A stretch of DNA of 37,024 nucleotides, taken from assembly GCA_016839945.1 (NCBI GenBank), contig JAEOTE010000005.1, positions 1 through 37,024 of the forward strand, in the 5' to 3' direction. Shown here one piece after another: positions 3,959 to 20,349 of this stretch. A model generated the notes under the pieces. It saw nothing but the letters and a program-made list of their open reading frames with translations, made no database searches and was not told where the DNA came from. Position 1 is the first letter of the stretch. Each line of letters begins with the position of its first letter. The position numbers and the translations under genes are program-made. The stretch comes from Candidatus Heimdallarchaeota archaeon. Its GTDB lineage: Archaea; Asgardarchaeota; Heimdallarchaeia; Heimdallarchaeales; Heimdallarchaeaceae.

Positions 3959-6946
3959 ATGACTAGTCAAAGCTCTTCGATACAAGAAAATTTTGTCTTC
4001 TCAAGCCTTTCGCTTTACAATTTCAAGATGCACAGAAATACTCAATTGAACCTCTCTGAGGTGCCAATTACAATTATTTCAGGTGCTAATGGAAGTGGGA
4101 AGACTCAACTGTTGGAAGCATTAATACTTGCAATAGGGAACACTCCAAATCGTGTATCATTGAGCACATTCAAAGAATTAATTGGACCTTTTGATAATTA
4201 TTGTAACATTAAGCTTTTTCTCAATAATCCAAAATTTTCTGAACAAAGAGTAATTCATAGCACAGATCCAGATATTGCATCTATAGTGAATAATGATTCC
4301 TTTTATTCCGAGCTAGAAATAAAACAAGATGGAGGAATCAAGAGGTATATAGGAACAGGAAGTAAGAAAAGGAAAGAAATCACACGTAAACAAATCAAGA
4401 GAACTATGAAGATCATTGGTATATTTGAAGATACAATGCTTAACTTTACTGAAGAAGGATATTTGGGAACCTTCGCAGATGGCTCTCCTCATAAAAAACT
4501 CGATAATCTGTTAGTAGCTACAGGTATGAAAGAGATATTCACAAGCTATATAGATTCAAGAAAAAGAGTAGAAGACAAAGAAAGAGAATTCTCCCCACTA
4601 GCCTTACAATTGGAAAAAGAACAAAATAAATTAGATAAACTTAAGGAAAATTATGAAAGATTACTGAAGAAAAAAGAATTAATTCAAAGATTTGATGAGG
4701 TTGAAAAAGAACTTTTCTGGTTTAATGCAATTGAAAGTCAAAAGAATTTAGAGGAAGCACAACAAGAACTTGAGATGAAAAAAAAGAAACTAGAAGAGCT
4801 TAAAAAAACAGAATCGGAAACAAAAAAAGAAGTAAAAACAACTAAAGAATCACTAGATATAGAAAACGAACAGATAATTGATTCAAAATCAAAAATCAGA
4901 GAGATGTCAGATAATCTCAATAGATTCAAAGGACAAAAAGATGAAAAAAATAAACAAATCCAAGAGATTAGTTCTAACTTATTAACACTAGAAAATCAGA
5001 TTAAAGAATACAAATTGGTTAACTCTAGCGAAGGATTTGAGAAAAAAGTTGTTTTACAAGATCAAATAAATAGGATAAAGAAAGACCAAAAAAACATAGA
5101 AAAAAGAATGGATGAAATTTCTAAAGAGATAAGAAAATTATCACAAGAGGAAGATTCAATAAAAGAAAGAATAAATGAAAGATCTCAGCTTTATGGAGAA
5201 TTAAATGATTATGAAAGAAGATTAATCAAAGATGTGATATGTTTCAAAGAAAAAATAAGTAAATCGAAATATAAAGAAGAAATAGTTGGTCCCATTCATG
5301 AAATAATTAACATCTTACCAGAACATCATGATTATGAAAAAGTTATAAAAACAGTTATTGGAAAACATCTCTACAGTTTTATCGCAACTTCCCAAAAAGC
5401 TTATGAAGATGCGAAAAAGATTTATGATGAATTATTCGTTTTATATAAACCTAATTTTATTGTAGGAAGAGTGATTTTTCAAAAAGGATCAAAATCTAAA
5501 CATCTAACTAGTTATGAGTTTGAGAACAAACCTGAAGGATTAATTGATCATATTGTAAATCTCATTGAAGGACCAGATGCTGCAAAGATATACCTGAGGA
5601 AGTTTATTAGAATCATGTTAGCAAAACCTTCTCTTTCTGCAGTTTTATTAACCGATTATGCTAAGAAACTAAGAACAAATATTTTGACAAGTGATGGTAA
5701 AAGTTTCTTTCTATCTCAAGAAGCGTTCACTCGACCACCTAGATCTCAAAATGTGAAGCTAGGTGTCGAACTCTCGAAATATCAATCTATCGAGAGAATA
5801 AGAGAACAACTCAACCAACTTTATTCTAAGGTAGAAGATCTGAACATAGAGAAAGGGGAGTGCATTAGAAAGATTTCAGATTTCGATAGGGAAAGAAGAG
5901 ATTTGGAAGAAAAACTTAAACCTTGGGAGATGAATAAGGGTGAGATCGAAAGAGAATTTCTGAGATTTGAAGATACAAGAAGTAGTCTAGAACAACAACA
6001 AAAATCGGAATTAAGCAATCTCGAAAGTTTAAGTGAACAAATAGATGATTTATCACGAGAACTTATTAGTTTTGAAAAGGAATTTGAATCAGTTCAAGAG
6101 ACTCAGAAGGAGAAAAGAGAAAAATACGATAATCTCCAACATTCATTACAAGAAATAATATCTAAAAGAGAGAAGAAAAAACAATACCTAAACCTTCTAT
6201 CATTAGATATTAGTGAATTAGAAGGGAGATATAAAGAATTAATAGAAATTGCAAAAGAAAAAGGTTCCAAGTCTGAATCAATCCGTGAGAATAAAGAAGA
6301 AATATTAGTCGAGTACAATAAAATAAAAGGTCAACTTGAATTTTTGGAGATTACACCTGAATTAAGTGAAGAAACAATAGATGAACAGGAAAAAAGAGTA
6401 GAACTATTGAATCAAGAAGTTAGCGAAAATGAGATTCACTTAAAGCATTTGAAAGATGATTTAGAGAAAAGAATACAAGAATGGGAAGGTGGATTGAATA
6501 ATATAGTAAACCATCTAAACAGGATGTTAAACCTACTTCTAAAAGATATCTTTAAGAATATATCAGTTAAAATAACAAATTATAATGACGAGAGATCTGC
6601 AGGACTAGTAATAGAAGCAGAAACAAAAGGTGATAGCAGAATATATAGACAACTCTCTGGAGGGGAAAAGACTCTTATTGCTCAAGCAATTATACTCGCA
6701 TTACATATGATAAATCAATCTCCAATTCATGCGATAGATGAGTTTACTCAAAAACTAGATAAAAAGAATAAAGCTTTAGCTTTTTCTATGGCGCTAGCTA
6801 CTTATAATCTAGCAAAGGAAAATAGGATGATTACTCCTCAATTTGTTTTGATAACTCCGATGTTGGACGATGTTGAATTATCTGATGAATTCACACACAA
6901 AGTTCTAATTGAAAGCAAGGTAGAAAAAGAGAAGGTGAAGACATGA
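3959..6946 (+). CDS. SMC-family ATPase, SMC5/6-like
   Basis: Walker A GANGSGKT; two long coiled coils around a hinge (IVGPIHEII...VIGKHLYSFIA); signature LSGGEK; Walker B/D-loop SPIHAIDEFTQKLD; terminal QFVLITP. No Rad50 CxxC hook. Confidence 0.88.
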   Translation: MTSQSSSIQENFVFSSLSLYNFKMHRNTQLNLSEVPITIISGANGSGKTQLLEALILAIGNTPNRVSLSTFKELIGPFDNYCNIKLFLNNPKFSEQRVIHSTDPDIASIVNNDSFYSELEIKQDGGIKRYIGTGSKKRKEITRKQIKRTMKIIGIFEDTMLNFTEEGYLGTFADGSPHKKLDNLLVATGMKEIFTSYIDSRKRVEDKEREFSPLALQLEKEQNKLDKLKENYERLLKKKELIQRFDEVEKELFWFNAIESQKNLEEAQQELEMKKKKLEELKKTESETKKEVKTTKESLDIENEQIIDSKSKIREMSDNLNRFKGQKDEKNKQIQEISSNLLTLENQIKEYKLVNSSEGFEKKVVLQDQINRIKKDQKNIEKRMDEISKEIRKLSQEEDSIKERINERSQLYGELNDYERRLIKDVICFKEKISKSKYKEEIVGPIHEIINILPEHHDYEKVIKTVIGKHLYSFIATSQKAYEDAKKIYDELFVLYKPNFIVGRVIFQKGSKSKHLTSYEFENKPEGLIDHIVNLIEGPDAAKIYLRKFIRIMLAKPSLSAVLLTDYAKKLRTNILTSDGKSFFLSQEAFTRPPRSQNVKLGVELSKYQSIERIREQLNQLYSKVEDLNIEKGECIRKISDFDRERRDLEEKLKPWEMNKGEIEREFLRFEDTRSSLEQQQKSELSNLESLSEQIDDLSRELISFEKEFESVQETQKEKREKYDNLQHSLQEIISKREKKKQYLNLLSLDISELEGRYKELIEIAKEKGSKSESIRENKEEILVEYNKIKGQLEFLEITPELSEETIDEQEKRVELLNQEVSENEIHLKHLKDDLEKRIQEWEGGLNNIVNHLNRMLNLLLKDIFKNISVKITNYNDERSAGLVIEAETKGDSRIYRQLSGGEKTLIAQAIILALHMINQSPIHAIDEFTQKLDKKNKALAFSMALATYNLAKENRMITPQFVLITPMLDDVELSDEFTHKVLIESKVEKEKVKT

Positions 6947-8761: not shown

Positions 8762-9009
8762 ATCCACAGAAAAAACAATTACTGAATATTAGTATTTTAA
8801 GCACTGTTTTTAATAAAAAACCAATATTTTTCATCTACTCTATTTGAAGAATAAACTTATTATTCTAAAATTAACACTTTTTAGCTTATTTGTTTAAGCT
8901 TTTCTTTGATTGAATCAATCTCTTTTTCAGTTCTGCAAAAAGTTTATAGTCTATCTATTTGAATATTATTTGATATTTATAAATATCGTCTAAGAAGGAT
9001 GAAGAAAAA

Positions 9010-10494
9010 ATGAAAATAAAAAAAATAGCACTTTTAATATTGTTAGTTTCAACTTTGACATTTGGATCAACAATCTTCATGACAGAAGCTAAAGTAAAAC
9101 CAATAGATCCTCCAGAATTGAAACCTGATAGTGGCACACTGCATATAGTAACTAGACATGCAAGCAATATTCAAACTCTGTTTAGAGATAGATTCCTTGC
9201 ACATCCACTAGCAATAAACAATGGAATAACAGCACTAGAATTTAGTGCAGCAGGATCAGCTGAGGGAGCTAAGAAACTTATGGAAAATCCAGCAAAAGGA
9301 ATAGACATTGCATGGGGAGGTGGCCCAGCAGTATTCAATACTCTTAATGACTGGGGCTTATTACTGCCCATCGACAATATAACTCTAATAAACTACATTA
9401 ACTCAAAAGTTCCTGATCAAATTGCTGGAGCTGATACTAAACTTAATGACTCTTCTGGAAATCTCATATGGGTTGCTAATGCCATTTCTTCTTTTGGATT
9501 TACCGTCAATCATGATTTCTTAACTACTCATGGATTACCAGTACCTCATACATGGGAAGAACTAGCTTCTCCAGTATATTACATTGGAGCAGGTGCACGA
9601 GCAGTAAGTATGGGTGATCCACCAGGAACAACCTCAAACACCAGAATTTATCAAATCATTCTACAAGCGTTTGGATGGGAAGAAGGATGGTCCATTTTAA
9701 CAAGAATGGGAGCTAATTCAGGTATCTATCCAGGATCTGTAGCTACAAGACAAGCAGTAGTTGATGGTAACGTAGGTATCGCAATGACAATAGATTTTTA
9801 TGGTACAATCGCAGGTAGTGAAAATCCAGATTGTGAATATATCATTCCTGAAGGACAATCTATAGTTAATGGTGATCCAATAGCAATCTCAGCAAATACA
9901 GATAATAAAGCTAAAGCAGAGATTTTTCTCCAATATCTGTTTGATGAAAATGCTGGACAAACTGATTGGATGCGACCAGGTTTAGAACGTCTTCCTGTTA
10001 ATGAGTTGGCTTTTAATTCTACCTATGGTAAAACAAGAACTGACATATATGCACTATATAACGATACTCTAGTAAATGAAGGAATAGATTTTAATGAAAC
10101 TGAAGCAACTGCACACTTACGCGCATGCATATACTACTTCCATAACACTATCTCAGAATCTCATACTCAATTAAGAGAGACTTGGGGTGAAATGATAACT
10201 CAATTAGGTGATGGTACAATTACTCAAGCTCGTTTTGATGAGTTGGTAGATATGTTGGGTGCTGTAGGTATGACTCACGAAGAATCTTTTACAGTAACTA
10301 CTGAAATGCAAGATACTCTAAAAGCATCTGAATATGAAGAACAGTGGCTAGCTTTTGCTCTACAGAAGTATAGTAATTTAATATGTGAACTGGGCGGAGT
10401 ATGTGAGAAAACTGCTTTTCAATTAACACCGATATTAATATCTACAATTTTCATTGGAATACTAACAATAATCTTCCGAAAGAGAAGGAAATGA
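9010..10494 (+). CDS. ABC transporter substrate-binding protein, Fe3+/thiamine (AfuA/FbpA-like) class
   Basis: Signal peptide, DIAWGGG, PHTWEELA, GDPPGTTSNTR, IAMTIDFYG, NGDPIAI; C-terminal TM helix plus RKRRK. Confidence 0.85.
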   Translation: MKIKKIALLILLVSTLTFGSTIFMTEAKVKPIDPPELKPDSGTLHIVTRHASNIQTLFRDRFLAHPLAINNGITALEFSAAGSAEGAKKLMENPAKGIDIAWGGGPAVFNTLNDWGLLLPIDNITLINYINSKVPDQIAGADTKLNDSSGNLIWVANAISSFGFTVNHDFLTTHGLPVPHTWEELASPVYYIGAGARAVSMGDPPGTTSNTRIYQIILQAFGWEEGWSILTRMGANSGIYPGSVATRQAVVDGNVGIAMTIDFYGTIAGSENPDCEYIIPEGQSIVNGDPIAISANTDNKAKAEIFLQYLFDENAGQTDWMRPGLERLPVNELAFNSTYGKTRTDIYALYNDTLVNEGIDFNETEATAHLRACIYYFHNTISESHTQLRETWGEMITQLGDGTITQARFDELVDMLGAVGMTHEESFTVTTEMQDTLKASEYEEQWLAFALQKYSNLICELGGVCEKTAFQLTPILISTIFIGILTIIFRKRRK

Positions 10495-10504
10495 AACCTT
10501 AACA

Positions 10505-10524
10505 TTTCTTTCTTCTTATTTTTT
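10505..10524 (+). terminator. Oligo-T terminator-like tract between binding-protein and permease genes
   Basis: T-rich tract shortly after the stop at 10494. Confidence 0.5.
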
Positions 10525-10694
10525 TAAATCAAATTTCTTGAAAATACTTCACTTAATGTTTAATTTTTGGAAAAATTTTTTTTAATAACGTTAAAAGATT
10601 ACTTGAAAATCATAAAAAGCATCAATTTTAGGAGTAAAATTCAAAAAGCATAAAGAAATAAATATCCAGAAGGAGAAAAAATAGGAAGATTCCA

Positions 10695-13586
10695 ATGGCA
10701 AAAACAAAGAAAAGTCAGAATAAAAAAAATAATGCTAAAGGGCAAAAAAAAGAAAGAAAATCTATTATAGACTTTCTATATGTGAAGTTACTACGTGATC
10801 GTTCTACAAACTTCATAATTGTTGTAACTGTTTTTGTTTTTATCGTTTGGATGGTAATTCCATTATTTTTAGTTTTGTCAGCAGGAGTATATTTCGATGG
10901 AAGTTGGTCAGGACAACCCATTGTAAATGTATTTGCAGGTAATTCAAGTAAAAAATTCTTTAATTTTGCAGGAGAACCAAATACACAACTCGTGACAAAA
11001 ACTACAGAGGAACTTGGAGGACCTTCTGATTCAATTAAGGTTGTTGATGATGTCGCTTATGTTGCGGAGCGGGAGGGTGGTATAGAGGTTCTGAATGTAA
11101 GTGATACATCTGAAATAATAGAAATAACAACATATGATGATAATATAAGTTCGTTTCAGGATATAGAAATAAAGGATAATTATTTATTTAGCGCAGCTGG
11201 AAAAAGCGGTCTAGTTGTATTCAACATTTCTAATGTAAATGATGGCATCTATCCAATCGCATTTTTACCAGGACTAGCTAATACTACTAATTTTCTAACT
11301 TTGTCAAACAACTTGGTTATTTTAGAAACTAATAGAGATGGATTTTCCATTATAGATGTATCTAATGTTGTTCAACCTGTAATTCAGGCTAATGTGTCAG
11401 TTGATTATGAACTAAAAAACATTGTAGTAAAAGATACCATTGCTTATGCAGTAGGTTATTCTCTTGGAATAATTGTTTTTAACATAAGCGATCCTACTGT
11501 TCCTCAAATTATTCGAACTTATAGTGATTTCCCAGGTCTTGGTACATTAAGAGTTCAAGATATCAGCGTTGTTAACGATATCGCTTATGTTGCTTTAGGT
11601 TCAAAAATGGCTCTATTTAATGTTAGCAATCCTGCTGATATTTCCTTAATTTCAGAGATGGACAATATAGAAGCAAATGGTGTGGAAGTTTCTGGTGATT
11701 ATGCTTATGTTACCGTATTTGATACTGTTAATCTGATATATGGAGTGGTTGTTGTTGATATTAGCAACACTACAAATTTAATTGAACTTGGAAGTTTCAC
11801 AACTTCACTTTATTTTAATCAAGATGTCTTTATAGATGAGTCAAGGAATCTTATCTTCTTAGCTCAAGGAAAAGGAGGAACTCAGATTGTTGATATAACT
11901 GATAAAAACAACCTTGTGCTCTTAAGTAGTTTTGTTGACACGCAAACAATTACTGTTTATATTTTTAGTGGAAAAAATAGGGGTATAGTATTAAATACAT
12001 TGATATTGGGAGTCTGTACAACCATCGGTTCAATACTTTTAGGTACAGCATTAGCGTTTATTTTGGCAAGATATGAATTTCCAGGAAAAAAACTAATAAG
12101 CTTATTAGCTTTAGCTCCTTTAATTATACCACCATTCATTTCAGGAATGGGTTTTAACTTACTTATAGGACCTAGTGGTTTACTTAATAACTTATTTCTA
12201 ATACCTGTTTTTCAAATAAAGGTAATTTTTACGGGATTTCTTGCTATTTGTTATGTACAAACTTCTCATTTCTATGCATTAGTTTACCTAAATGCTTATT
12301 CTTCATTTCTTAATATAGATCCAAGCATGGAAGAATCAGCTGAAAATCTTGGTGCAGGTAGTTTTCGTTTGTTTTACAGTGTTACTCTCCCCTTAGCACT
12401 GCCTGGAATAGGTGCAGGTTCTATACTAGTACTAATTCTTTCAATGGAAGATGTTGGGACACCAATAATCTTTGCAAGACTGGGTGATACTCTTGCAACT
12501 AATTATTTAACATATTATGTGTTTGATAACTTTCATAGACAGGGAGCTGCAGTGATTACGCCTGAAGTGTGTATCCTAGGGGCCCTACTGTTAATAATAG
12601 CACTAATTGGCTTCTTTATGATTCGAAAGTATGTTTCTCTTAGAAAATATGCAATGGTAAGTAAAGGGAGAGCAGGTGAATACAGACTGACAAAGGCTAG
12701 ATGGAAATTGTTGTTCATCTATCCTTTTCTAATTATACTTTTTGCATTATCATTATTAATCCATGTTGGAGTGTTTTTGATGTCTATTCTGAAAACTCTT
12801 GGCCCTACGAAAGCCTCTGATGTTAAATTCACGTTTGATAATTATCGTTTAATATTTGATAGAACATCATTAGAAGGACAACTATACAATATCCCTCCAT
12901 ATATGTTGAATACGATTGTTTATAGTGTTGTAGCAACTATGTTGATTATTATACTTGGTTCTTTAGCTGCATATGTTATAAGCAGAAAAGAATTCAAAGG
13001 AAAAAATCTATTAGATGCTTTAGTTACACTTCCTATTGCTATCCCAGGTATTGTTCTAGCTCTTGGATACTATAGAACTTTTGATTGGAGTAGCATAGCT
13101 GCGAAAAATCCCACGTGGATAAACAATATGATGGCAAATGTAACGTCTACTCTTCGGTTAGATCCGTTTATAGGAGTAGCAGTAACTCTACTAATATTGA
13201 GTTATACGGTTAGAAAATTTCCATTCACTGTGAGGTCAGCATTTGCAGGATTACAACAAACTGATGTGGTTCTTGAGGAAGCTTCATTTAATCTAGGAGC
13301 AAGTAGAATGCAAACCTTTTCAAAAGTGACTCTTCCTTTGATTTCACTTAATGTTTTTGCAGGATCTTTGGTATCCTTCCTCTATTGTCTTTCAGAGGTA
13401 TCTACTACAATATTTTTGATATTCCAATCAGAAGCAGGAACATTAACATGGTATATGGCTTGGATGCCTCTTAAATTTCAGATTTTCTGTGCTTTAGGTG
13501 TATTACTAATGTTACTTCAAGTCTTTAGCCTATTTGTAACAAATGTAATATTAGGTTCAAGGGCAGAAGCAATAACAGGAATCTAA
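10695..13586 (+). CDS. Fe3+/thiamine-type ABC permease (FbpB/ThiP-like, two fused TM domains) with inserted LVIVD beta-propeller
   Basis: Two EAA loops (MEESAENLGA, LEEASFNLGA), PLIIPPF and LPIAIPGIV motifs; seven LVIVD-type repeats after the first TM helix. Confidence 0.88.
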   Translation: MAKTKKSQNKKNNAKGQKKERKSIIDFLYVKLLRDRSTNFIIVVTVFVFIVWMVIPLFLVLSAGVYFDGSWSGQPIVNVFAGNSSKKFFNFAGEPNTQLVTKTTEELGGPSDSIKVVDDVAYVAEREGGIEVLNVSDTSEIIEITTYDDNISSFQDIEIKDNYLFSAAGKSGLVVFNISNVNDGIYPIAFLPGLANTTNFLTLSNNLVILETNRDGFSIIDVSNVVQPVIQANVSVDYELKNIVVKDTIAYAVGYSLGIIVFNISDPTVPQIIRTYSDFPGLGTLRVQDISVVNDIAYVALGSKMALFNVSNPADISLISEMDNIEANGVEVSGDYAYVTVFDTVNLIYGVVVVDISNTTNLIELGSFTTSLYFNQDVFIDESRNLIFLAQGKGGTQIVDITDKNNLVLLSSFVDTQTITVYIFSGKNRGIVLNTLILGVCTTIGSILLGTALAFILARYEFPGKKLISLLALAPLIIPPFISGMGFNLLIGPSGLLNNLFLIPVFQIKVIFTGFLAICYVQTSHFYALVYLNAYSSFLNIDPSMEESAENLGAGSFRLFYSVTLPLALPGIGAGSILVLILSMEDVGTPIIFARLGDTLATNYLTYYVFDNFHRQGAAVITPEVCILGALLLIIALIGFFMIRKYVSLRKYAMVSKGRAGEYRLTKARWKLLFIYPFLIILFALSLLIHVGVFLMSILKTLGPTKASDVKFTFDNYRLIFDRTSLEGQLYNIPPYMLNTIVYSVVATMLIIILGSLAAYVISRKEFKGKNLLDALVTLPIAIPGIVLALGYYRTFDWSSIAAKNPTWINNMMANVTSTLRLDPFIGVAVTLLILSYTVRKFPFTVRSAFAGLQQTDVVLEEASFNLGASRMQTFSKVTLPLISLNVFAGSLVSFLYCLSEVSTTIFLIFQSEAGTLTWYMAWMPLKFQIFCALGVLLMLLQVFSLFVTNVILGSRAEAITGI

Positions 13587-17957: not shown

Positions 17958-18019
17958 GAATTTTACTAATTCTAATACTTAACGCATTTTTTTCATTCAT
18001 TATTCTATTACTCACGTTA

Positions 18020-18100
18020 TGAAACTTGGTTAAACTTGCCAAAGGCTATTTAACCGTCGTTTAAGTGGGTCCCCTACACGTGCGATGAGGGGAAAGGATC
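18020..18100 (-). ncRNA. Putative 3' part of TnpB omega/reRNA and element right end
   Basis: Minus-strand stems TCCCCT/AGGGGA (18070-18093, spanning the tnpB stop) and GGTTAAA-TA-GCC-TTT-GGC-AAG-TTTAACC (18028-18055), located where TnpB guide scaffolds normally lie. Confidence 0.5.
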
Positions 18101-20002
18101 GAGAGGAAGAAGAGTACCTTTGAGGGAAGCGATATTTTGTGCAGCATTGAAGTGTGTGTTAACTTGTTGACCACATTTGGTGCAAGGAGCAACATCATAC
18201 TGACCTTTGTGACGAACAAGCGAACCACCACAGTTATGATGATTGCTACTAGTATGAAAGGGATTGACTGATTCTAAATGTACTTTATAACCTAACTCTA
18301 GTGAAGCTAACCACACAGCTTTTTTGTAGATAAACAAACTGTCTGGCATGGTGTAGATAGCTTTAGCTAAGGCTCCTTTAGTACCAGTTGCGTCAGCTGT
18401 TAAGCGCTCAATCCTCAACACTTTACATTTCTTTTTCACCAACACTGCGGCAAGAAAGTGGGGGAGGAGACGGGTGATCTCTCGGAGGATTCTACTGCGA
18501 CGAGTATAGACGCGTTTGAGTTCACCTTTGAGCTTACAACTCCCATGAACATCATACTCTTTTCGTTTACGGAGGAACCCTCGGTTAAGTTCATCCAACA
18601 CTTTCTTACTAAGATGATCATAATGATTTGCTAAATCTAGTAAATCTGGAGGGAGAGGAACAGCTGAGTTAAACACTAACATGTATTGACCTAAGCGGTT
18701 GATGTCTACTCCAAGAGTAGAGATTTTCTTTCCAGGAATCTGGGAAAGATAGCGGTGAAGAAGAGTCGAGGAGTGGAAACAACCATGCGCTCCTTCTAGC
18801 ACCACATCCACTCGAGGTTTGTAGCTAGGTGCATGCCCACTACTTACTTGAAAGACTTTAATGTTAGCACCATTATTTAGATACTCTAACAATTTTGATG
18901 AAAAGTGTACTTGAGCTGCTAGTCGCTGTTTTCCCTTCTTGGGAAAACCTAGTTCTGTCCATCCTTGCTTTCTTATTTGGTCAGTTAATTCTTGTGCATT
19001 CCCTTGACGGGTGATAACATAGTTTTTCTTCATTAACAATTTGATTGGTAATCTTCCTTTCTTTTTACGTTTAAATGGAATGGGAACAACATTCTCTACA
19101 GGTAATCCTTTTACTAACTGAGGGACACTCTGCATATAATGGTCAAAGAGTGTGAAAATGACAATCTGCCTGACAGCAGAAAAGAGTTTTCGGTTAGGTT
19201 TACCTATAATTATTGCTAGTTGTTCAGCGAGAGCTTTGAGACTTTTCCAACGAGAAGATTGAGGACTGTTGATCCACGAGGTGAGAAAAGGGACAACGAT
19301 ATTTTGTTCTTTTTTCAACAGTTGCAGTTTCTTCATAAATGCTTGTTGATTCTTTGTCAAATGTGGGAGGAGGGAAAGTTCGTGTTTTTGGTAGAACAAC
19401 GTATCATCTATCGCTTGGAGTACTTCAGTTTGTATTCTAGTTGGTAGAGTGGAGTTTAGTTGAAGGAATTCAGAAATAACAATTGGTCTATACTTCTTTC
19501 TCCAATATGAATCAGTTTGCGCTCTAGTACTTGTCAGGAGGTTGATTATGTATCTTCTTTTCAGTTTCCAATATTTCTCCAAGCTTCGCTCAGTATAAGG
19601 AGAGCGACCGAAAACTATCCATTCTATCAACTGTTGAGGATTCTTCAGTAAAAAATTAAGTATTCCTTGCGCTTTCCGTTCTTTCTCTACTTTGCCCTTG
19701 ATGGCCATATATAACCAATGGAAAGCACTTTCAGCTATATTGGGACTCTTTCTCACTTTTTTACATAGTTGGCGTGTGAAGAATCCTTCTTTAGGATTGG
19801 TGCTGTATAATTCCACTGCTTGTTTAATCACTTGAGGGGTGAGAATCTGATGTTGTCGTTCTTCGAGAGCTCTTATCCTGTTATTTATCTCTTCTCGTTG
19901 GGATTGGTCTGCACACTTCAGCACTACTTGATAGCTTCTCATCACTCCCTTAGACGTAGGGGGTAGGAGTGGTTGTAGGTTACTTGCTGTTTGTGTGACC
20001 AC
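18074..20002 (-). CDS. tnpB: Large TnpB-like (Cas12-related) RNA-guided RuvC protein
   Basis: RuvC-I LGVDIN, RuvC-II LRIERL, VNPFHTSS-NHHNCG and CTKCG zinc ribbon, RuvC-III NTHFNAAQNIA; very basic. Confidence 0.85.
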   Translation of the reverse strand: MVTQTASNLQPLLPPTSKGVMRSYQVVLKCADQSQREEINNRIRALEERQHQILTPQVIKQAVELYSTNPKEGFFTRQLCKKVRKSPNIAESAFHWLYMAIKGKVEKERKAQGILNFLLKNPQQLIEWIVFGRSPYTERSLEKYWKLKRRYIINLLTSTRAQTDSYWRKKYRPIVISEFLQLNSTLPTRIQTEVLQAIDDTLFYQKHELSLLPHLTKNQQAFMKKLQLLKKEQNIVVPFLTSWINSPQSSRWKSLKALAEQLAIIIGKPNRKLFSAVRQIVIFTLFDHYMQSVPQLVKGLPVENVVPIPFKRKKKGRLPIKLLMKKNYVITRQGNAQELTDQIRKQGWTELGFPKKGKQRLAAQVHFSSKLLEYLNNGANIKVFQVSSGHAPSYKPRVDVVLEGAHGCFHSSTLLHRYLSQIPGKKISTLGVDINRLGQYMLVFNSAVPLPPDLLDLANHYDHLSKKVLDELNRGFLRKRKEYDVHGSCKLKGELKRVYTRRSRILREITRLLPHFLAAVLVKKKCKVLRIERLTADATGTKGALAKAIYTMPDSLFIYKKAVWLASLELGYKVHLESVNPFHTSSNHHNCGGSLVRHKGQYDVAPCTKCGQQVNTHFNAAQNIASLKGTLLPLDPFPSSHV

Positions 20003-20049
20003 TTTACTCGCTATCTAATCCACAAAATGATATTTAAGGGTAAGAAAAA

Positions 20050-20241
20050 CTAGCTTGTGGGAGGTGCTTTTCCTCTTCGTTGTCTATGTAATCTTCCTGC
20101 AAAGGAGGTAACCAGTGCGATCATATCTTCTACAAGTTTAGTTTCCTGTGAACTCTGTATTTGTTGATGGATGGAGATAATTTGTGTTTCAAACGTTTGA
20201 CAATACTGTTCTATCATTTTCTTTCCAAATCTTGCTAGTCT
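20050..20241 (-). pseudogene. tnpA: 5'-truncated IS607 serine recombinase TnpA
   Basis: Manual translation: RLARFGKKMIEQYCQTFETQIISIHQQIQSSQETKLVEDMIALVTSFAGRLHRQRRGKAPPTS*, matching the IS607 DRLxRFG...ELVEDLxxIITSFxxRLY pattern; in-frame stop at 20254-20256, so the HTH and catalytic Ser are lost. Confidence 0.85.
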
Positions 20242-20265
20242 CTTGCAGTTATTCTATTGCGGTTG

Positions 20266-20328
20266 AAAAACCTTTAAATTAGGCTTGTGTATTATAGGAT
20301 GTCGCAATACGTATTAACAATACGTATT
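20266..20328 (+). promoter_or_regulatory. TATA-like box plus two tandem palindromic operator-like sites upstream of pgk
   Basis: AAAAACCTTTAAAT (20266-20279); palindrome AATACGTATT at 20306-20315 and 20319-20328. Confidence 0.5.
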
Positions 20329-20349
20329 TACTGACTCGGTGAAAAAATA

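What the first reader, a model, noticed from the sequence alone, without database searches (positions are those of the whole stretch)
18074..20002. Oversized IS607-linked TnpB with a D-E-H RuvC triad
Seen: 642 aa with a long basic helical N-terminal region; RuvC-I D and RuvC-II E present; aligning CTKCGQQVNTHFNAAQNI with the usual CxxCGxxxxRDxNAAxNI puts His at the third Asp; the first Zn pair is HxxC. Known: typical TnpB is about 400 aa; IS607 TnpBs are the relatives of Fanzor2; nuclease-dead TnpBs (TldR) act as RNA-guided repressors; RNase H-fold PIWI domains tolerate a terminal His. Inference: either an active variant with altered metal use or a domesticated RNA-guided binder. The ORF is intact although tnpA has decayed.
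Basis: partly seen in the sequence, partly recalled or inferred. Interest (0 to 1): 0.7.

Follow-up and report, generated by a model that had tools for sequence, protein, structure and literature searches.

The report
Stranded Asgard IS607 TnpB, histidine type
This is an intact gene for a large TnpB-type RNA-guided nuclease, with its guide-RNA scaffold, left in a Heimdall (Asgard) archaeon by a jumping element that has lost its transposase; its active-site histidine is a conserved family trait that is already catalogued but has never been tested at the bench.

Summary
The ORF at 18074-20002 (-) encodes 642 aa (622 from the conserved Met21). It carries RuvC-I D433, RuvC-II E532, His617 where Cas12f/TnpB have the third Asp, and an H588-x2-C591 / C607-x2-C610 zinc ribbon. 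The His is not a private mutation. It is present in 121 of 122 full-length relatives. Among 121 cluster representatives that cover the column, 116 have His, 5 Gln and none Asp. D433 and E532 are invariant.

The gene belongs to a multicopy IS607-type element of Heimdall- and Hodarchaeota. Intact copies are 2.70-2.74 kb and carry a serine-recombinase TnpA. The window copy (about 18011-20241) has lost the left end and about two thirds of tnpA. It keeps an 83-nt omegaRNA-like scaffold (18093-18011) with a covariation-supported pseudoknot and a sharp scaffold/flank boundary.

The insertion is absent from the same GNAT-PGK spacer in 12 of 12 same-genus relatives, so nothing points to domestication. 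dN/dS is 0.12-0.18.

Most likely this is an immobilised but functional RNA-guided nuclease of a known kind. Asp-to-His at RuvC-III was described by Altae-Tran et al. 2023. Activity is inferred, not shown. This scan has met the same family many times on other DNA.

The parts
18074..20002 (-). tnpB-like ORF, 642 aa from GTG. The conserved Met21 (ATG at 19942) would give 622 aa. The stop codon TAG is at 18074-18076.
   Evidence: Pfam PF07282 TNB domain scores 31.9 bits against a cut-off of 26.3. AF2 model pLDDT 89. TnpB/Cas12f fold, Z 14.2 to 8iaz.
18704..18706 (-). Codon of D433 (RuvC-I, motif GVDINR)
   Evidence: 122/122 in alignment A1 and 95/95 in distant representatives. Aligns to the GIDLG motif of 8iaz.
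18407..18409 (-). Codon of E532 (RuvC-II, motif RIERL)
   Evidence: 122/122 in A1. In representatives, 111 Glu, 8 Asp and 1 His. Aligns to the TIEDL motif of 8iaz.
18152..18154 (-). Codon of H617 (RuvC-III position, motif NTHxNAA)
   Evidence: Aligns to the catalytic Asp in the NADYNAA motif of CnCas12f1, Un1Cas12f1 and OsCas12f. His in 121/122 of A1. In representatives, 116 His, 5 Gln, 0 Asp.
18173..18241 (-). Zinc ribbon (TNB domain) with ligands H588, C591, C607 and C610
   Evidence: Position 588 is His in 112 and Cys in 11 distant representatives.
18011..18093 (-). omegaRNA-like scaffold, the part supported by covariation. P1 hairpin 18093-18070. Pseudoknot 18084-18079 with 18016-18011. 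P2-P4 stem-loop 18062-18022. It overlaps the last 6 codons and the stop codon.
   Evidence: Block conserved in 62 loci with an abrupt loss of conservation after ...CGTGCG. 98.4% of cells paired. The pseudoknot is 99.2% paired, with 4 of 6 pairs showing compensatory changes, and 0/500 shuffles reach the observed values. The window copy has one G.A mismatch, at A18012.
17991..18010 (-). Guide-position flank: host DNA directly 3' of the scaffold, 53 nt upstream of the GNAT start codon
   Evidence: Inferred from the conservation boundary. The sequence differs in every locus. No significant second match in the genome.
20050..20244 (-). Remnant of IS607 tnpA, aa 133-196 of about 196. The left end and the first two thirds of the gene are missing.
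   Evidence: NCBIfam IS607 transposase model, positions 137-185, E 4e-8. 91% identical to the intact TnpA of L007 over aa 133-196. Homology to intact elements stops at 20241.
18011..20241 (-). The whole truncated element, about 2.23 kb, inserted in the GNAT-PGK divergent intergenic spacer. GC is 39-42% against 30-34% in the flanks.
   Evidence: Intact relatives are 2.70-2.74 kb. The empty spacer is seen in 12 same-genus relatives.

Best explanation
The locus is an immobilised copy of an IS607-type insertion sequence that is multicopy in Heimdall-group Asgard archaea.

Intact elements run: left end, tnpA (MerR-like HTH plus serine recombinase), tnpB, right end. The window copy has lost the left end and about 130 codons of tnpA. 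It keeps a fully conserved 622/642-aa TnpB-family protein and the RNA scaffold that overlaps the 3' end of the gene.

By analogy with characterised TnpB/OMEGA systems, the 3' part of the tnpB transcript would be processed into an omegaRNA. The scaffold (P1 hairpin, pseudoknot, P2-P4) binds the protein, and the roughly 16-20 nt that follow come from the flanking host DNA and act as the guide. The complex would cut the 'empty' donor joint next to a TAM, so that the element is restored by recombination.

The RuvC centre is D433-E532-H617. His at the third position is the ancestral state of this whole lineage. Most likely it still takes part in metal-dependent catalysis, as a His does in other RNase H-fold nucleases. 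The extra 250 or so residues are an enlarged helical REC lobe.

Shown here: the gene anatomy, family-wide conservation, the link to TnpA, RNA covariation, the lineage-specific insertion and purifying selection. Inferred: RNA guidance, TAM dependence and nuclease activity.
For: Fold and motifs:
- TnpB/Cas12f fold, with a Pfam TNB domain above threshold.
- RuvC-I, -II and -III equivalences come from profile alignments to solved TnpB and Cas12f.

Conservation:
- In 122 full-length relatives down to 21% identity: D433 122/122, E532 122/122, H617 121/122.
- In 121 50%-cluster representatives: 116 His, 5 Gln, 0 Asp.
- dN/dS is 0.12-0.18 against 15 relatives.
- The window protein keeps 131 of 132 conserved columns.

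Transposon context:
- An intact IS607 TnpA (NCBIfam 170 bits, cut-off 110) lies directly upstream in L007, L019, L028, L031, L035, L042 and others.
- Intact elements are 2.70-2.74 kb and have no target duplication.
- The family is multicopy: 71 loci in public MAGs, 5 paralogues in this genome, 22/22 genomes of the genus.

RNA scaffold:
- The 3' scaffold has a sharp boundary and compensatory changes, including in the pseudoknot.
- More distant clades keep the same architecture with different letters, for example GCATAC/GTATGC.

Literature: conserved Asp-to-His clades were interpreted as probably active in PMC10691335.
Against: - No biochemical test of any D-E-H TnpB was found in the literature searched.
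- Model coordinates could not be read, so the geometry of H617 relative to D433 and E532 is unchecked, as is the position of the other conserved acidic residues (E494, D554, D603).
- No clear TAM emerges from the 10 left flanks examined.
- The window copy has one mismatch in the pseudoknot, the only such case at that pair among 62 sequences. This could reflect relaxed constraint.
- No near-identical copies occur within any genome (73-92% nucleotide identity), so recent mobility is not shown. MAG assemblies do tend to collapse repeats.
- The curated TnpB HMMs of NCBIfam are not reached (19.8 against 100 bits).
Confidence: 0.7

Rival explanations
1. Nuclease-dead RNA-guided DNA binder. His617 abolishes cleavage across the family, and the protein works as a programmable binder. 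It might repress transcription as TldR does. It might instead help the transposon without cutting, by marking or tethering the donor joint or target for TnpA.
For: The canonical third Asp is absent in every relative. Five representatives carry Gln, which is a poor metal ligand. In this genome all five paralogues lack a cognate TnpA yet stay open. TldR-type domestication of TnpB is documented in PMC10705468 (abstract seen).
Against: D433 and E532 are invariant even at 21-30% identity, which is hard to explain without catalysis. The family remains transposon-borne with intact TnpA in many loci. The guide-position sequences are simply the local flanks and differ at every locus. The window insertion is not shared by 12 syntenic relatives. 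No second genomic target exists for the guide-position sequence. RNase H-fold nucleases with a His ligand are active (Argonaute DEDH, Cas9 RuvC H983; general knowledge, not tested here).
Confidence: 0.2
2. A decaying pseudogene-like relic. This particular copy is stranded, has no function any more, and its ORF is open only because too little time has passed.
For: The left end and most of tnpA are gone. The pseudoknot has one mismatch. No empty-site allele exists for it to target. Other copies in related genomes carry stops or truncations.
Against: The tnpA next to it has lost two thirds of its length, while the 1.9-kb tnpB has no stop or frameshift and deviates at only 1 of 132 conserved columns, with a conservative I/V change. 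The nearest relative is at dS 0.63 with dN/dS 0.14. That figure averages over both lineages, so it cannot date the loss of constraint.
Confidence: 0.1

Closest known systems
IS607-family elements with serine-recombinase TnpA, TnpB and omegaRNA/reRNA. Structural references: ISFba1 TnpB (PDB 8iaz) and ISDra2 TnpB (8h1j, 8exa).
   Same: Gene order tnpA-tnpB. No target duplication. An RNA scaffold overlaps the 3' end of tnpB and ends at the right end of the element. WED-REC-RuvC-TNB fold (Z 14.2 to 8iaz, 11.7 to 8h1j).
   Different: 622-642 aa against about 380-410. The REC lobe is enlarged to about 270 aa. RuvC-III has His instead of Asp. The zinc ribbon is H-C-C-C. The sequence is so divergent that the NCBIfam TnpB and IS607_TnpB models score far below their cut-offs.
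TnpB clades with a rearranged RuvC-III in Altae-Tran et al. 2023 (PMC10691335): major clade RIIIr-4, including the archaeal MazE/RHH-TnpB, and the archaeal branches Ser-6 and RIIIr-6.
   Same: The catalytic Asp of RuvC-III is replaced by His and this is conserved across a clade. The authors read this as retained activity. The family here is archaeal and linked to a serine recombinase, as 'Ser-6' is described. Two long relatives show weak MazE-like hits.
   Different: RIIIr-4 is described as lacking the C4 zinc finger, whereas this family has a conserved H-C-C-C ribbon. No MazE/RHH gene sits next to the window copy. Which named branch the family belongs to could not be determined, because no supplementary data are held.
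Cas12f (type V-F), e.g. CnCas12f1 8hr5, AsCas12f 8dzj/8j3r, OsCas12f 9nzq
   Same: These are the best sequence-level matches in the PDB. They share the N-x-[D/H]-x-N-A-A-x-N-I motif and the TNB ribbon. Foldseek E-values are 6e-10 to 1e-7.
   Different: No CRISPR array or cas genes. The gene is transposon-borne, with the guide taken from the flank. His replaces Asp.
Fanzor2 (ApmFz2, PDB 9b0l) and the IS607 TnpB-to-Fanzor lineage (PMC11832414, PMC10711439)
   Same: IS607-type ancestry and the same core fold (Z 12.2).
   Different: It is not closer to Fanzor2 than to ordinary TnpB or Cas12f. Nothing found here links this Asgard family specifically to eukaryotic Fanzors.
TldR, nuclease-dead domesticated TnpB repressors (PMC10705468)
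   Same: A TnpB relative that lacks the canonical third Asp and, in this genome, has no TnpA.
   Different: RuvC-I and RuvC-II residues are fully conserved. There is no conserved host-gene partnership. The insertion is lineage-specific. The guide position holds local flank, not a promoter match elsewhere.

Membership tests
TnpB / OMEGA RNA-guided nuclease superfamily | WED-REC-RuvC-TNB fold | tested here: met
   AF2 model pLDDT 89. VIA Z 14.2 to ISFba1 TnpB, with 336 residues aligned over model residues 20-632. Z 11.7 to ISDra2 TnpB. Foldseek probability 1.0 to many Cas12f and TnpB chains.
TnpB / OMEGA RNA-guided nuclease superfamily | Zinc-ribbon TNB domain between RuvC-II and RuvC-III | tested here: met
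   Pfam PF07282 scores 31.9 bits against a cut-off of 26.3. Ligands are H588, C591, C607 and C610, conserved in at least 98% of sequences.
TnpB / OMEGA RNA-guided nuclease superfamily | Canonical D-E-D RuvC triad | tested here: not met
   D433 and E532 are present, but the third position is His617. No relative has Asp there. Published surveys still place such variants inside the TnpB tree.
TnpB / OMEGA RNA-guided nuclease superfamily | Structured RNA scaffold overlapping the 3' end of the gene, with a sharp scaffold/guide boundary at the transposon end | tested here: met
   62 loci. 98.4% of cells paired. 9 pairs show compensatory changes, and 0/500 shuffles reach the observed values. Expression and processing were not tested.
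TnpB / OMEGA RNA-guided nuclease superfamily | Curated sequence models (NCBIfam guided_TnpB NF040570, IS607_TnpB NF038280) | tested here: not met
   19.8 bits against a cut-off of 100, and 11.1 against 350. Only the C-terminal 55 residues match.
IS607 family insertion sequence | Serine-recombinase TnpA with an N-terminal MerR-like HTH, upstream of tnpB | tested here: met
   The relatives' TnpA (P0272) scores 170 bits against a cut-off of 110 on NF033518. The window holds only aa 133-196.
IS607 family insertion sequence | Defined ends and no target-site duplication | tested here: met
   Intact relatives are 2.70-2.74 kb, running from AC[CT]GT... to ...CGTG[CT]G, and their flanks share no repeat. 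The window copy lacks the left end.
TldR-type domesticated TnpB | Loss of RuvC catalytic residues or C-terminal truncation | tested here: not met
   D433 and E532 are invariant, and the full C-terminus with the ribbon is present.
TldR-type domesticated TnpB | Conserved host locus or partner gene across species | tested here: not met
   The GNAT-PGK spacer is empty in 12/12 same-genus syntenic loci.
RIIIr-4 clade of Altae-Tran et al. 2023 | RuvC-III Asp replaced by His | tested here: met
RIIIr-4 clade of Altae-Tran et al. 2023 | Absence of the C4 zinc finger | tested here: inconclusive
   The family has an H-C-C-C ribbon, and 11 distant representatives have C-C-C-C. Whether the paper would score H-C-C-C as 'lacking C4' is unknown.
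RIIIr-4 clade of Altae-Tran et al. 2023 | Phylogenetic placement within that clade | not testable with these tools
   The paper's sequences and supplement are not held.

The most novel reading that the evidence does not exclude
The His-type TnpB does not make double-strand breaks at all. Instead it would be retained by these IS607 elements as an RNA-guided DNA binder or nickase that cooperates with the serine recombinase, for example by marking the donor joint or target. That would be a break-free form of RNA-guided transposon maintenance, in the closest prokaryotic relatives of eukaryotes. The evidence does not exclude this, because no D-E-H TnpB has been assayed and the model geometry could not be inspected.
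Probability: 0.08. Interest if true: 0.8.

Novelty: new member of a known kind. Interest (0 to 1): 0.3.

Why it matters
The window copy itself is an ordinary stranded insertion sequence. The family behind it has three features of some interest:

- It is a compact, well-defined test case for an open biochemical question. Can a RuvC centre with D-E-H instead of D-E-D still cut DNA, and with which metal?
- It shows a TnpB that has grown a Cas12-sized REC lobe while staying inside a transposon.
- It is abundant in Heimdall-group Asgard archaea.

If the enzyme is active, the short 83-nt scaffold supported here and the clear scaffold/guide boundary would make it easy to reprogram.

Tried and rejected
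**Private inactivating mutation.** Rejected, because the His is family-wide.

**Domestication by conserved synteny.** Rejected, because the spacer is empty in 12/12 relatives.

**Guide aimed at a second genomic site.** The genome holds 6 hits with up to 3 mismatches. The reversed-pattern control gives 3 and 4, so this is not significant.

**Target-site duplication or RNA-mediated insertion of the truncated copy.**
- A 10-bp direct repeat, TTATTCTATT, flanks the element at 18000-18009 and 20249-20258.
- 81 of 5000 shuffles give a repeat at least as long.
- None of about 46 other copies shows one; their longest shared word is 8 nt or less.
- It is therefore treated as chance.

**Surviving left-end tip at about 20244-20267.** The local alignment score is 16, reached by 230 of 1000 shuffles, so this is not supported.

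**Further RNA helices inside the ORF, up to 330 nt upstream.** None has compensatory support.

**Known RNA families.** Rfam gives no match.

**Active-site geometry.** Model coordinates are not exposed, so distances from H617, D554, D603 and E494 to D433 and E532 could not be measured.

**Placement in the named branches of PMC10691335.** No supplement is held.

**Recent mobility.** No pair of copies above 92% nucleotide identity occurs within any assembly.

**TAM.** No conserved motif appears in the 10 left flanks.
Full report
**Observation.** The ORF at 18074-20002 on the minus strand is real and open.
- It has 642 codons from a GTG. A conserved ATG at 19942 (Met21) would give 622 aa. That is the length of the protein on record for this contig.
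- The first 20 residues are poorly conserved and modelled at low confidence.
- The protein is basic (pI about 10).
- Residues 33-298 are almost entirely helical.
- Pfam recognises only the C-terminal Cas12f1-like TNB zinc ribbon, at 31.9 bits against a cut-off of 26.3.
- The curated NCBIfam TnpB models score far below their cut-offs.

**Active-site motifs.** Sequence and profile alignments to solved structures place three motifs:
- GVDINR (D433) falls on RuvC-I of ISFba1 TnpB.
- RIERL (E532) falls on RuvC-II of ISFba1 TnpB.
- VNTHFNAAQNIA falls on VNADYNAARNIA of Cas12f, so His617 sits exactly where the third catalytic Asp is expected.

The zinc ribbon is H588-x2-C591 ... C607-x2-C610.

**Is the His a private lesion?** No.
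- A word-indexed search found more than 120 relatives at 39-87% identity. Nearly all named ones are Candidatus Heimdallarchaeota MAGs.
- An exhaustive HMMER scan of 1.84 billion cluster representatives found only 162 relatives at E <= 0.001. The family is therefore small and far from mainstream TnpBs.
- In an alignment of 122 full-length members reaching down to 21% identity, D433, E532, C591 and C607 are invariant. H617 and H588 are each present in 121 of 122.
- Among the 50%-identity representatives that cover the column, the RuvC-III position is His in 116, Gln in 5 and Asp in none. D433 is 95/95. Position 532 is Glu in 111, Asp in 8 and His in 1.
- The first zinc ligand is Cys in 11 distant members. 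H-C-C-C therefore looks derived from C4.
- The local motif N-T-H-x-N-A-A parallels the N-A-D-x-N motif of the 'derived' TnpB clade and Cas12f.

**Fold.** An AlphaFold2 model built on this alignment is confident (pLDDT 89, pTM 0.81).
- Foldseek and the VIA second look return only TnpB, Cas12 and Fanzor structures.
- The best match is ISFba1 TnpB 8iaz, at Z 14.2 with 336 residues aligned across model residues 20-632.
- Other matches are AsCas12f at Z 13.1, Fanzor2 9b0l at Z 12.2 and ISDra2 TnpB 8h1j at Z 11.7.
- About 340 residues form the usual core. The excess is mainly an enlarged helical REC lobe (about residues 30-305).
- Coordinates are not exposed. The distances between H617, D433 and E532 could not be measured. 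Neither could the positions of the other conserved acids (E494, D554, D603).

**Genomic context.**
- The 55-aa ORF upstream (20050-20217) is the C-terminus of an IS607 transposase.
- In related loci the same position holds a complete TnpA with a MerR-like HTH and a serine-recombinase domain. Examples are L007, L019, L028, L031, L035 and L042. It scores 170 bits against a cut-off of 110 on the IS607 equivalog model.
- Intact elements measure 2.70-2.74 kb, run from AC[CT]GT... to ...CGTG[CT]G, and have no target duplication, as expected for a serine recombinase.
- Homology between the window and intact elements runs from 18010 to 20241 only. The left end and about 130 codons of tnpA are gone.
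- The window's genome (88% complete) holds five paralogues at 35-71% identity and no intact cognate TnpA.
- Many other copies in public MAGs are likewise tnpA-deleted.

**RNA scaffold.**
- Across 62 loci an approximately 83-nt block is conserved. It spans the last codons, the stop codon and the downstream sequence. Conservation collapses immediately after ...CATAACGTGCG.
- The block folds into a hairpin (P1) and a three-part stem-loop (P2-P4).
- The P1 loop (CGCACG) pairs with the extreme 3' end (CGTGCG) to form a pseudoknot.
- On the alignment 98.4% of cells are paired and 9 pairs show double compensatory changes. No shuffle of 500 reaches the observed values, and sliding the partners destroys the pairing.
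- The pseudoknot alone is 99.2% paired, with compensatory changes at 4 of 6 pairs.
- More distant clades keep the same layout with different letters.
- In the window the scaffold is 18093-18011 (-). The flank at the guide position is 18010 to about 17991.
- The window copy carries a single G.A mismatch in the pseudoknot, at A18012.
- No extra supported helices were found further into the ORF, and Rfam has no matching family.
- This is the anatomy of an omegaRNA.

**Mobile element or domesticated gene?**
- In 12 same-genus relatives the GNAT and PGK genes are direct divergent neighbours, separated by roughly 105-150 nt (estimated). None of them has an insertion there.
- In the window the two host flank pieces (53 + 108 nt) add up to a normal spacer. 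The conserved PGK upstream motif (ATACGTATT twice) is intact.
- The guide-position sequence differs at every locus. In this genome it has no match beyond the level of the control.
- The family is present in 22/22 sampled genomes of the genus, in 26/28 of the family, and patchily across the phylum (51/301). It is usually present in several copies.
- Copies within a genome are 73-92% identical. The family is old and diversified, with no recent burst. MAG assembly may hide near-identical repeats.
- dN/dS between the window gene and 15 relatives is 0.12-0.18. The window protein deviates at 1 of 132 conserved columns.

**Interpretation.** The best reading is a stranded but intact TnpB-omegaRNA module of an IS607-type element.
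- The invariance of D433 and E532, the retention of His rather than random residues, and the continued pairing with TnpA argue for a working metal-dependent nuclease rather than a dead binder.
- RNase H-fold nucleases that use a His ligand, such as Argonaute DEDH and Cas9 RuvC H983, are precedents. That point is general knowledge and was not tested here.
- The dead-binder reading keeps about 0.2 probability, because no D-E-H TnpB has been assayed.
- The 'relic' reading for this particular copy keeps about 0.1.

**Comparison with the literature.**
- Altae-Tran et al. 2023 (PMC10691335) describe six large TnpB branches with an altered RuvC-III.
- The largest, RIIIr-4, includes archaeal MazE/RHH-linked TnpBs. 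In it the catalytic Asp is replaced by His, and the authors argue that conservation implies retained activity.
- They also list archaeal branches (Ser-6, RIIIr-6) and Asgard-linked TnpB groups.
- The present family fits this known kind. Which named branch it belongs to cannot be decided here. RIIIr-4 is said to lack the C4 finger, this family has H-C-C-C, and no supplement is held.
- No paper testing such an enzyme was found.

**Earlier notes in this scan.** The scan's notes record the same family in at least eight other genomes, with the same verdict. My tests agree with them independently.

**Verdict.** This is a new member of a known kind, of modest interest (0.3).

Noticed in passing
window 18000-18009 and 20249-20258: A 10-bp direct repeat, TTATTCTATT, lies 1 nt outside the right end and 7 nt outside the truncated left border of the element. 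81 of 5000 shuffles give a repeat at least as long, and about 46 other copies show nothing similar, so it is probably chance.
   Followed up: yes
window 20290-20335 (PGK upstream region); also L085, L087-L090: A tandem motif, ATACGTATT-n4-ATACGTATT, about 20-60 nt upstream of the PGK start is conserved in several same-genus relatives. It is a candidate regulator-binding site of the pgk promoter.
   Followed up: partly
P0188, P0199 (L092:2301-7655), P0151, P0163, P0184: Distant relatives of 1200-1800 aa carry the His-type TnpB module at the C-terminus of a much longer protein. Two have weak MazE/AbrB-like hits and proline-rich tails. They are fused forms of unknown function.
   Followed up: partly
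L004:118-1362 (own genome, contig C47): Directly upstream of a 43%-identical paralogue lies a 414-aa protein with a C-terminal RING finger (PF13639, 35 bits), not a transposase.
   Followed up: no
L008 (DAOVET010000049.1), 4956-6881 (+) and 8787-10880 (-): Two diverged copies of the element (about 80% identity to the window) sit tail-to-tail within 2 kb of each other.
   Followed up: no
L002, L006, L016, L041, L044 (left flanks): Many 2.04-2.2-kb copies seem to keep a short left-end motif (ACTGA...CAATCTTACCA) directly before tnpB, with tnpA cleanly deleted. These may be non-autonomous derivatives that TnpA could mobilise in trans.
   Followed up: partly
P0141, P0171, P0200, P0225, P0239: Five distant representatives have Gln instead of His at the RuvC-III position while keeping the RuvC-I Asp and RuvC-II Glu. 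They could be natural inactive variants, useful as comparators.
   Followed up: no
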